Origin: Escherichia coli
Lineage (GTDB): Bacteria; Pseudomonadota; Gammaproteobacteria; Enterobacterales; Enterobacteriaceae
Reading direction: 5' to 3' (one strand)
Assembly (NCBI RefSeq): GCF_003019035.1
Contig: NZ_CP027447.1
DNA: 64,000 nt
Part shown: positions 7,951 through 8,262 of the stretch, piece by piece
Layout of the letters: each line of letters opens with the position of its first letter
Position numbering within the stretch: the first letter of the stretch is position 1
The notes under the pieces: generated by a model
Told to the model about the DNA's origin: nothing
Database searches by the model: none
The model's input: only the letters and a program-made list of their open reading frames with translations
Made by a program: the position numbers and the translations under genes

Positions 7951-8262
7951 TCATTAATGCGCCTGCGGGCGCATTAATCACTTCTTTTACCCCCCGTTAA
8001 TTAACTTCGGCAAAAATATATTTCTTACTGAATAAATATCGACGATATTTATTATATATATTTAGTGAATATTTACTCATCATTTATTGATTATAAACAT
8101 GTACAACCTGGCGCACAAATTTAATATTTAATTTCTGACTTTATTTCAAGTTGTGATAAACATAGACAAGTTGTCAGACAGGTTAACCAATTTGTCGCAC
8201 AAAGCACTGATAAGCACAATTAGATATCAACCAATTTCCATCCTTCAACAGGGAGTTTTTTT

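What the first reader, a model, noticed from the sequence alone, without database searches (positions are those of the whole stretch)
8110..8204. Nested direct repeats upstream of the TRAP operon (candidate operator)
Two motif pairs are arranged A-B-B'-A': ggcgcacaaat (8110) and gtcgcacaaag (8195) flank caagttgtga (8147) and caagttgtca (8167), about 60-150 bp upstream of the binding-protein gene start. Paired sites of this kind are typical of transcription-factor operators.
Basis: seen in the sequence. Interest (0 to 1): 0.3.

Follow-up and report, generated by a model that had tools for sequence, protein, structure and literature searches.

The report
Hexuronate-repressor operators upstream of TRAP transporter
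The repeated words upstream of this accessory E. coli TRAP transporter are real, but they are pieces of an ordinary sugar-acid promoter: a CRP-like half-site followed by two palindromic GntR/FadR-type repressor operators, most likely for ExuR/UxuR, in front of a probable glucuronate/galacturonate uptake system.

Summary
The four words are in the sequence as described, except that A' starts at 8194, not 8195. As repeats alone they are only marginally non-random (shuffle p about 0.03-0.07). All four do fall in blocks conserved upstream of the orthologous dctPQM operon in about 15 enterobacterial genera.

The A-B-B'-A' nesting is an E. coli coincidence. In other genera A differs from A' and B differs from B'.

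- **B** contains a conserved AAAATGTGA, a CRP-like left half-site.
- **B'** is the left half of operator I (8168-8184, AAGTTGTCAGACAGGTT).
- **A'** is the right part of operator II (8189-8205, AATTTGTCGCACAAAGC).
- **A** is a conserved block of unknown role.

The two operator centres are 21 bp apart in 37 of 37 promoters and flank a conserved -10-like hexamer. A matrix built only from K-12 exuT/uxaC/uxaB/exuR operators ranks operator I first of 63,984 window positions.

The binding protein is closest to glucuronate/galacturonate-binding TRAP proteins. In Aeromonas and Pantoea sp. IMH a homologous TRAP operon replaces exuT next to exuR, behind an exuT-type promoter.

Most likely this is an ExuR/UxuR-repressed, CRP-dependent hexuronate-uptake promoter: a predicted new member of a known regulon. 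Binding is untested.

The parts
7953..7978 (+). hemW intrinsic terminator hairpin (ATTAATGCGCC-tgcg-GGCGCATTAAT, then a T-run). It marks the upstream limit of the TRAP promoter region.
   Evidence: Terminator scan; inverted repeat I7.
8111..8120 (+). In E. coli only it forms a weak operator-like 17-mer, AACCTGGCGCACAAATT (8105-8121).
   Evidence: The majority CACAAAA is conserved in at least 70% of 20 representative promoters. The K-12-derived matrix scores it 11.0 bits, rank 7 of 63,984, in the window, but it is not detected in other genera.
8147..8167 (+). CRP-like site.
   Evidence: TGTGA is present at these columns in 31 of 37 promoters. Its distance to the operator I centre is 22 nt in 34 of 37 and 20 nt in Escherichia. 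The K-12 exuT, uxuA and dgo promoters also have a TGTGA box just upstream of their operators.
8168..8184 (+). Operator I: AAGTTGTCAGACAGGTT, a 17-bp GntR/FadR-type palindrome (TTGTC-a-GACAG) centred on 8176.
   Evidence: One mismatch to AAnTTGTnnnACAAnTT, the best match in 64 kb. It scores 18.5 bits, rank 1 of 63,984, with a matrix from five K-12 exu/uxa operators; leave-one-out true sites score 11.8-19.0. The core [GA]T[AC]nGA[CT]A is present in 37 of 37 orthologous promoters.
8176..8193 (+). Escherichia-specific UxuR-type ('even') site AGACAGGTTAACCAATTT. It overlaps both operators and the -10 position.
   Evidence: Thirteen bases (GGTTAACCAATTT) are identical to the K-12 uxuA operator region. 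It matches 13 of 18 positions of the published UxuR operator AAATTGGTATACCAATTT (PMC8092373). It is the top hit in the window with a matrix from the gntP/uxuA/uxuR sites, 16.6 bits against 12.2 for the next hit, and is absent from other genera.
8188..8193 (+). Position of the conserved -10-like hexamer. Other genera have TAATAT or TAAGAT; E. coli has a weak CAATTT.
   Evidence: This is the only strongly conserved -10-like column, present in 24 of 37 promoters, with an overlapping GATAAT in 10. The transcription start was not determined.
8189..8205 (+). Operator II: AATTTGTCGCACAAAGC (TTTGT-cgc-ACAAA palindrome) centred on 8197.
   Evidence: Two mismatches to the pattern. It scores 9.4 bits, rank 11 of 63,984. 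It is the most conserved stretch of the region, rank 4 of 159 windows. Its centre is exactly 21 bp from the operator I centre in 37 of 37 promoters; other genera have T[GA]T[CT]ATACA here.
8221..8237 (+). Conserved leader block TAGATATCAACCAATTT (consensus AGATATnnACCA). Its role is unknown. The right half, ACCAATTT, equals the right half of the uxaC and uxuA operators.
   Evidence: direct repeat D4 (AACCAATTT at 8185 and 8229).
8250..8255 (+). Shine-Dalgarno sequence AGGGAG, 7 nt before the ATG.
   Evidence: GGAG is conserved in all aligned promoters.
8263..9249 (+). dctP-family TRAP solute-binding protein (328 aa), of the hexuronate-binding type.
   Evidence: NCBIfam TIGR00787. The best PDB relatives are 4ovr, 4n15/4n17, 4mhf/4mij, 4x8r and 4n91. 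The GxRS, KIRVQ and AENN ligand motifs are aligned. Their ligands are given in PMC7660916.
9285..9797 (+). dctQ, TRAP small permease.
9797..11098 (+). dctM, TRAP large permease.

Best explanation
Window 8105-8262 is the regulatory region of an accessory dctPQM operon that probably imports D-glucuronate and/or D-galacturonate. It is built like other enterobacterial sugar-acid promoters. A CRP-like TGTGA half-site (8152-8156) sits upstream. Two 17-bp GntR/FadR-type palindromic operators (8168-8184 and 8189-8205) have centres two helical turns (21 bp) apart and bracket the -10 position. In the absence of hexuronate, a dimeric FadR-subfamily repressor occupies both operators and blocks RNA polymerase. 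The most likely repressor is ExuR. UxuR may act additionally through an E. coli-specific UxuR-type site at 8176-8193. Hexuronate or fructuronate binding to the repressor releases it, and cAMP-CRP is then needed for full activity.

Shown: the sites exist, match independently derived ExuR/UxuR operator models, and are conserved in sequence and spacing across genera. The binding protein is hexuronate-type.

Inferred: the identity of the repressor, the CRP role, the transcription start, and repression by occlusion.

For: (1) Motif. The palindrome AAnTTGTnnnACAAnTT was derived from the K-12 exuT operator. At 2 mismatches or fewer it gives 11 hits in 64 kb against 4.7 expected, and 3 of them lie in 8105-8205.

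(2) Independent matrix. A matrix from five K-12 exuT/uxaC/exuR/uxaB sites ranks 8168-8184 first of 63,984 positions (18.5 bits, within the range of true sites). It places 4 of its top 11 hits in 8105-8205. No dinucleotide shuffle of the intergenic region reaches the observed top score or gives four hits of 9 bits or more (0 of 1000).

(3) Phylogenetic footprint. 36 orthologous promoters were compared, from Citrobacter, Kluyvera, Klebsiella, Buttiauxella, Edwardsiella, Mangrovibacter, Enterobacillus and others. They conserve TGTGA, operator I and operator II. The operator I to II spacing is invariant at 21 bp (37 of 37). The TGTGA to operator I spacing is near-invariant (22 nt in 34 of 37). The leader length floats between 54 and 78 nt. 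The footprint persists where the operon is not next to hemW.

(4) Substrate. The closest solved relatives are glucuronate/galacturonate-binding TRAP proteins. PMC7660916 identifies 4N91 and 4MHF as such and shows that the Salmonella homolog STM3169 binds D-glucuronate with a Kd of about 0.2 uM.

(5) Synteny. In Aeromonas rivuli, A. molluscorum and Pantoea sp. IMH the homologous operon (DctP 60%, DctM 75% identity) lies as uxaB-uxaC <> dctPQM -> exuR, the position exuT holds in K-12. Its promoter aligns with the K-12 exuT CRP box and operator.

(6) Architecture precedent. The best engineered ExuR-repressed promoter has one operator between -35 and -10 and one downstream of -10 (PMC10294642). 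A UxuR operator placed between -35 and -10 represses (PMC8092373). The dgo promoter has two inverted repeats 21 bp apart.
Against: No binding or expression data exist for this promoter, and no regulator gene lies in the cassette.

The TGT-N3-ACA core is shared by several FadR-subfamily regulators. The small matrices do not cleanly separate ExuR from DgoR in genera other than Escherichia. The dominant half-site here (TGTC) is a minority among K-12 ExuR sites.

Operator II in E. coli scores 9.4 bits, below the weakest leave-one-out true site at 11.8.

The CRP-like site has a good left half only. In E. coli the -10 position is weak (CAATTT), and TGTGA is 2 bp closer to operator I than in other genera. 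So the E. coli promoter geometry and transcription start are uncertain.

Block A and the leader block at 8221-8237 are conserved but not explained by this model.
Confidence: 0.7

Rival explanations
1. The operators are real FadR-subfamily GntR sites, but they are bound by a regulator other than ExuR/UxuR, for example DgoR, LgoR, FadR or an uncharacterised paralog encoded elsewhere. The transporter would then respond to a different sugar acid.
For: The TGT-N3-ACA core and the arrangement of two repeats 21 bp apart are also found at the DgoR-controlled dgo promoter. In non-Escherichia genera the ExuR and DgoR matrices give similar, moderate scores. The dominant TGTC half-site is not the commonest K-12 ExuR half-site. 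STM3169 showed a thermal shift with D-galactonate as well as D-glucuronate.
Against: The window's operator I scores 18.5 bits with the ExuR matrix against 1.8 with the DgoR matrix. The core GT[AC]nGACA is shared with the exuT and uxaB operators and with the Aeromonas exuR-linked site, whereas DgoR sites have TACA. The binding protein's relatives bind hexuronates. A homologous operon is physically linked to exuR and uxaCB. The K-12 lgoR/lgoD region has no such sites.
Confidence: 0.17
2. One reading: four sites of one factor arranged as nested direct repeats A-B-B'-A', for example a looping or tetrameric regulator that recognises the two word pairs.
For: In E. coli the word pairs are exact 8-mers (CAAGTTGT x2, CGCACAAA x2). 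A nested pair of exact 8-mers occurs in only 3% of shuffles. All four words overlap conserved blocks.
Against: In 35 other promoters the paired words are not alike. A is GCGCACAAAA against A' TGTCATACAG, and B is AAAATGTGAG against B' AAGTTGTCnGAC. Each of B' and A' is half of an inverted repeat whose other half the model ignores. The A to A' and B to B' similarity arose in the Escherichia lineage, which also carries a 2-bp deletion and a rewritten inter-operator segment.
Confidence: 0.05
3. Chance repeats in AT-rich intergenic DNA, or scars of the cassette's insertion, with no regulatory role.
For: Repeated 8-mers alone are barely above expectation (p about 0.07). The cassette is an indel relative to K-12. 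The scan tool found no consensus sigma-70 promoter on the + strand.
Against: The blocks are conserved in sequence and spacing across genera whose flanking intergenic DNA is unalignable, including genomes where the operon has other neighbours. The cassette breakpoints lie at the hemW and yggM stop codons, more than 150 bp from the repeats. The operator matrix result is not reproduced by shuffles.
Confidence: 0.03

Closest known systems
E. coli K-12 exuT promoter (ExuR-repressed, CRP-activated hexuronate transporter gene)
   Same: A TGTGA CRP box is followed by a 17-bp TTGT-N3-ACAA palindrome: exuT has AAGTTGTATGACAAGTT, the window has AAGTTGTCAGACAGGTT. Both control a hexuronate uptake system. 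In Aeromonas and Pantoea sp. IMH a homologous TRAP operon sits behind this very promoter type, next to exuR.
   Different: The transporter here is a TRAP dctPQM system, not the MFS ExuT. There are two operators 21 bp apart, whereas I detected only one strong site near exuT. The CRP-like box has only a good left half. No regulator gene is adjacent. The locus is accessory, present in about 27% of complete E. coli genomes.
E. coli dgo promoter (DgoR, GntR/FadR family; two inverted repeats IR1 and IR2 overlapping the promoter)
   Same: Two TGT-N3-ACA inverted repeats have centres 21 bp apart and flank an AT-rich -10 region, with a TGTGA upstream. The repressor is released by a sugar acid.
   Different: The inner bases differ: DgoR sites are TTGTA-n-TACAA, whereas here they are TTGTC-n-GACA(A/G). 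The dgo operon encodes its own repressor and this cassette does not. The DgoR matrix scores the window's operator I at only 1.8 bits.
Salmonella Typhimurium STM3169-3171 TRAP transporter (the binding protein binds D-glucuronate; PMC7660916)
   Same: It is a homologous DctP-type hexuronate binding protein with the conserved Arg/Arg/Asn ligand residues (R151, R171 and N211 here, offset +1). It is likewise an orphan operon with no neighbouring catabolic or regulatory genes.
   Different: It is not the positional ortholog. The 90%-identical Salmonella ortholog of the window's protein lies at hemW-dctPQM-yggM-ansB, and the residues corresponding to N35/Q36/E74 differ. That paper did not analyse operators. 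STM3169 is reported there as ppGpp-dependent.
UxuR operator of uxuA/uxuR/gntP (published consensus AAATTGGTATACCAATTT)
   Same: Window 8176-8193 (AGACAGGTTAACCAATTT) shares 13 of 18 positions with the consensus and 13 contiguous bases with the K-12 uxuA site. It lies over the -10 position, which is where a UxuR operator is known to repress.
   Different: It is present only in Escherichia and is not part of the conserved footprint. Its left half is weak. It overlaps the two conserved operators, so occupancy may be mutually exclusive.

Membership tests
ExuR/UxuR (GntR family, FadR subfamily) operator | Palindromic site with a TGT-N3-ACA core that matches the known exu-regulon operators (17-bp AAnTTGT-N3-ACAAnTT). 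| tested here: met
   8168-8184 has 1 mismatch and 8189-8205 has 2 mismatches. K-12 reference sites were read from L001 and L003.
ExuR/UxuR (GntR family, FadR subfamily) operator | Score within the range of accepted operators under a model built without this locus. | tested here: met
   Operator I scores 18.5 bits, rank 1 of 63,984; training sites score 16.8-21.4 and leave-one-out sites 11.8-19.0. Operator II at 9.4 bits falls just below that range, so this is met for operator I only.
ExuR/UxuR (GntR family, FadR subfamily) operator | Located in the promoter of a gene for hexuronate uptake or catabolism. | tested here: met
   The sites lie 58-95 bp upstream of dctP. The binding protein is nearest to glucuronate/galacturonate-binding structures and has conserved ligand residues. 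The substrate of this particular protein has not been measured.
ExuR/UxuR (GntR family, FadR subfamily) operator | Site conserved upstream of orthologous genes in other genomes (regulon consistency). | tested here: met
   The operator I core is present in 37 of 37 promoters, and operator II (T[GA]T[CT]ATACA or TGTCGCACA) in 37 of 37, with invariant 21-bp spacing.
ExuR/UxuR (GntR family, FadR subfamily) operator | Genomic linkage of the target, or a homolog of it, with exuR/uxuR or uxa/uxu genes in some genomes. | tested here: met
   The arrangement uxaB-uxaC <> dctPQM -> exuR is found in L043, L044 and L045. The promoter there is homologous to the exuT promoter. The linkage is seen only for the 60%-identity homolog group, not the hemW-linked group.
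ExuR/UxuR (GntR family, FadR subfamily) operator | Specificity: distinguishable from the operators of paralogous FadR-type regulators such as DgoR. | tested here: inconclusive
   In the window operator I scores ExuR 18.5 against DgoR 1.8. In other genera the two small matrices give overlapping scores, for example Kluyvera 13.4 against 10.3.
ExuR/UxuR (GntR family, FadR subfamily) operator | Physical binding by ExuR/UxuR, with release by glucuronate, galacturonate or fructuronate, and derepression in regulator mutants. | not testable with these tools
   This needs EMSA or footprinting and reporter assays. No such data were found in the paper library.
cAMP-CRP binding site (class II activation) | A 16-bp TGTGA-N6-TCACA palindrome. 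| tested here: inconclusive
   The left half AAAA(a/g)TGTGA is conserved, with TGTGA in 31 of 37 promoters. The right half is neither TCACA-like nor conserved (TAGAC in the window).
cAMP-CRP binding site (class II activation) | Centre near -41.5 relative to the transcription start. | not testable with these tools
   The start site is unknown. Relative to the conserved -10-like hexamer, the centre would be about -41.5 to -42.5 in most genera and about -39.5 to -40.5 in Escherichia. This is inferred from the spacings.
   Other genera have GCGCACAAAA against TGTCATACAG, and AAAATGTGAG against AAGTTGTCnGAC.
UxuR-type 18-bp operator (AAATTGGTATACCAATTT) | Match to the published consensus and to the K-12 uxuA/uxuR/gntP sites. 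| tested here: met
   8176-8193 matches 13 of 18 positions and is the top window hit at 16.6 bits.
UxuR-type 18-bp operator (AAATTGGTATACCAATTT) | Conservation upstream of orthologs. | tested here: not met
   It is present only in the window and in Escherichia sp. L007.

The most novel reading that the evidence does not exclude
The Escherichia lineage has rewired an ancestral two-operator promoter. Three changes are visible: a 2-bp deletion after the TGTGA box, replacement of the TAATAT -10 segment by GGTTAACCAATTT (identical to the uxuA UxuR operator core), and conversion of operator II to a better palindrome (TTTGT-cgc-ACAAA). Together these would create three interleaved operators of both spacing classes. 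The TRAP system would then be gated jointly by ExuR and UxuR, or by their reported heterodimer, from a new core promoter. Two further conserved blocks (GCGCACAAAA at 8111-8120 and AGATATnnACCA at 8221-8234) would bind an additional, still unidentified factor.
Probability: 0.2. Interest if true: 0.4.

Novelty: new member of a known kind. Interest (0 to 1): 0.3.

Why it matters
Glucuronate and galacturonate are gut and host-derived carbon sources. A high-affinity TRAP importer for them is carried by about a quarter of E. coli genomes, including ST131, ETEC and O111 strains, and by many Klebsiella, Citrobacter and Salmonella. If the prediction holds, this orphan transporter joins the ExuR/UxuR-CRP hexuronate regulon. 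That gives it a testable function and inducer, and helps explain strain differences in sugar-acid scavenging. The homologous STM3169 system contributes to Salmonella survival in macrophages (PMC7660916). The regulatory logic itself is conventional.

Tried and rejected
- **Even-spaced UxuR site as the conserved operator.** I first suspected GGTTAACCAATTT (TGGT-N2-ACCA type) was the main site. It is Escherichia-specific, so I demoted it to an accessory site.
- **Weak operators S0 and S1.** 8105-8121 and 8148-8164 rank 7 and 9 in the window but are not operator-like in other genera. I reassigned S1 to the CRP-like box and left S0 unexplained.
- **Block A as the right half of a second CRP site or a marbox.** The left halves are poor, so I made no claim.
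- **Alternative E. coli promoter.** TTGTCG (8192-8197), 17 bp, CACAAT (8215-8220) matches 8 of 12 positions and is not conserved. I noted it only as a possibility.
- **KdgR box.** It does not fit the sequence.
- **RNA element in the leader.** Rfam gave only sub-threshold noise.
- **Literature.** Suvorova et al. 2011 (PMC3147527), the key comparative paper on this regulon, is not held. I could not check whether this TRAP operon was already listed there or in RegPrecise. Searches for expression or regulation data on this operon found nothing.
- **Within-E. coli variation.** It was uninformative because 8100-8262 is nearly invariant.
- **Mis-written regular expression.** The operator II pattern returned 0 of 37. 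The printed sequences from that call were used instead.

Full report
**Context.** The window is E. coli. The finding lies in the 312-bp AT-rich spacer between hemW (6814-7950) and a dctP-dctQ-dctM TRAP operon (8263-11098). yggM and ansB follow on the opposite strand. The cassette is accessory. About 1,470 of 5,426 complete E. coli genomes carry it, including ST131, ETEC and O111 strains. K-12 has REP-type repeats in its place, with breakpoints exactly at the hemW and yggM stop codons. The same hemW-dctPQM arrangement occurs in Salmonella, Citrobacter, Klebsiella, Kluyvera and others. The cassette contains no regulator gene.

**Observation.** All four words are present: GGCGCACAAAT at 8110, CAAGTTGTGA at 8147, CAAGTTGTCA at 8167, and GTCGCACAAAG at 8194, one base earlier than reported. 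As repeats they are weakly significant. There are 5 repeated 8-mers against 1.7 expected (p about 0.07), and a nested exact pair occurs in 3% of shuffles.

**What the words are.** I read the K-12 exu/uxu regulatory regions. The exuT operator is a perfect 17-bp palindrome, AAGTTGT-ATG-ACAAGTT. The uxaC, exuR and uxaB sites are variants of it, all of the TGT-N3-ACA type. The gntP, uxuA and uxuR sites are one base shorter, of the TGGT-N2-ACCA type. That shorter type matches the experimentally used UxuR operator AAATTGGTATACCAATTT (PMC8092373).

In the window the best match to the exuT-type palindrome in all 64 kb is 8168-8184, AAGTTGTCAGACAGGTT. A second match is 8189-8205, AATTTGTCGCACAAAGC, which contains A'.

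A weight matrix built only from five K-12 exu/uxa operators scores 8168-8184 at 18.5 bits, rank 1 of 63,984. True sites score 16.8-21.4, or 11.8-19.0 when left out of the training set. The matrix puts four of its eleven best window hits inside 8105-8205. None of 1000 dinucleotide shuffles of the spacer reaches that top score or yields four hits of 9 bits or more.

**Phylogenetic footprint.** A scan of species-representative genomes returned 44 loci. Aligning 200 bp upstream of dctP from 37 promoters in about 15 genera gave discrete conserved blocks in otherwise unalignable DNA:

- AAAA(a/g)TGTGA (inside B)
- TTGTCnGACAAC (operator I, containing B')
- ATAAtATGTCATACAG (a -10-like hexamer plus operator II, at the position of A')
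- AGATATnnACCA in the leader
- the Shine-Dalgarno sequence

The geometry is constrained. The operator I and II centres are exactly 21 bp apart in 37 of 37 promoters. TGTGA to the operator I centre is 22 nt in 34 of 37 and 20 nt in Escherichia. The distance from operator II to the ATG varies from 54 to 78 nt. The only conserved -10-like hexamer (TAATAT or TAAGAT, 24 of 37) lies between the operators, at the column of window 8188.

The footprint persists where the operon has other neighbours: Buttiauxella, Edwardsiella, Mangrovibacter (next to a heparinase/alginate-lyase-like gene) and Enterobacillus. So the cis-elements travel with the operon.

In these genera A and A' are not alike, and neither are B and B'. 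The nested-repeat appearance is therefore an Escherichia-lineage coincidence. It arises partly because CRP half-sites and FadR-type half-sites both contain TGT, and partly because E. coli's operator II has drifted from TGTCATACAG to TGTCGCACAAAG.

**Which regulator, and what substrate.** The binding protein's nearest solved relatives are 4OVR, 4N15/4N17, 4MHF/4MIJ, 4X8R and 4N91 (E 1e-60 to 1e-68). PMC7660916 identifies 4N91 as glucuronate-binding and 4MHF as glucuronate/galacturonate-binding. It also shows that the Salmonella homolog STM3169 binds D-glucuronate with a Kd of about 0.2 uM. The GxRS, KIRVQ and AENN ligand motifs align.

In Aeromonas rivuli, A. molluscorum and Pantoea sp. IMH a homologous TRAP operon occupies the place of exuT, as uxaB-uxaC <> dctPQM -> exuR. 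Its promoter aligns column-for-column with the K-12 exuT CRP box and operator. The core GT[AC]nGACA of operator I is shared with the exuT and uxaB operators and with the Aeromonas site. The Enterobacillus operator I core (TGTATGACA) is identical to that of exuT. Together these point to ExuR.

In addition, E. coli alone carries AGACAGGTTAACCAATTT at 8176-8193. Thirteen of its bases are identical to the uxuA operator region, and it is the top window hit for a UxuR-type matrix. This suggests extra UxuR input in this lineage.

**Caveats.** The TGT-N3-ACA core and even the 21-bp two-repeat layout also occur at the DgoR-controlled dgo promoter. My small matrices separate ExuR from DgoR clearly only for the E. 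coli operator I, at 18.5 against 1.8 bits. The CRP assignment rests on a conserved left half-site only. The transcription start is unknown. In E. coli the -10 position is weak (CAATTT) and the TGTGA box is 2 bp closer, so the E. coli promoter may have been remodelled. Block A and the leader block remain unexplained. I found no experimental work on this promoter. I could not read Suvorova et al. 2011, which may already list it.

**Mechanism (inferred).** Without hexuronate, repressor dimers occupy operator I, between the activator site and -10, and operator II, at or just after the start site, and exclude RNA polymerase. This is the layout that gave the tightest engineered ExuR switch (PMC10294642). 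Hexuronate or fructuronate releases the repressor, and cAMP-CRP bound at the TGTGA box then supports initiation.

**Verdict.** The operator idea is right in spirit, but the architecture is different from the one proposed: inverted repeats and a composite promoter, not nested direct repeats. This is a predicted new member of the well-known ExuR/UxuR-CRP hexuronate regulon, of modest interest.

Noticed in passing
window 7990-7995: A poly-C tract just downstream of the hemW terminator is hypervariable among E. coli alleles. It is C6 here and reaches about C17 in strain Z1323CEC0019. It accounts for much of the 95-100% identity spread of the spacer.
   Followed up: partly
window 8031-8053: A perfect 11-bp-arm palindrome, AATAAATATCG-a-CGATATTTATT, lies in the AT-rich upstream half of the spacer (I8). 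It is absent from the Salmonella ortholog. Its function is unknown.
   Followed up: no
window 8111-8120: The block GCGCACAAAA is conserved across most genera, about 40 bp upstream of the TGTGA box. It is not palindromic and does not fit the operator model outside Escherichia, so it may be a site for an unidentified factor.
   Followed up: partly
window 8221-8237: A conserved leader block, TAGATATCAACCAATTT (consensus AGATATnnACCA). Its right half, ACCAATTT, equals the right half of the K-12 uxaC and uxuA operators and repeats 8185-8193. It could be a half-site, an alternative -10, or an RNA feature.
   Followed up: no
window 11104-11140: The second-best ExuR-matrix hit (AATTTGCCGGATAACTT, 13.1 bits) is one arm of a GCCGGATAA...TTATCCGGC hairpin between the convergent dctM and yggM stop codons. 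It is probably a bidirectional terminator, not an operator.
   Followed up: partly
K-12 locus L057 2405-2558 compared with window 7951-11153: K-12 lacks the whole cassette. REP-type repeats fill the hemW-yggM gap, with breakpoints at the two stop codons. Because many genera carry the operon at this position, loss in some E. coli lineages seems more likely than gain.
   Followed up: partly
L056 (E. coli strain A30), equivalent to window ~8039 onward: In this strain the spacer matches only as far as about position 89 and is followed by two IS1 copies. The TRAP promoter and operon are therefore disrupted or deleted there.
   Followed up: no
window 7947-8073, minus strand: A sub-threshold Rfam match to the enterobacterial sRNA family STnc130 (26 bits against a gathering score of 55, E = 0.08). 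It overlaps the hemW terminator and AT-rich DNA and is probably noise.
   Followed up: no
L058 (K-12 dgoR promoter) 1270-1320, minus strand: The dgo promoter's two DgoR inverted repeats are also exactly 21 bp centre-to-centre, with a TGTGA box just upstream. This suggests a shared promoter design among FadR-type sugar-acid repressors.
   Followed up: partly
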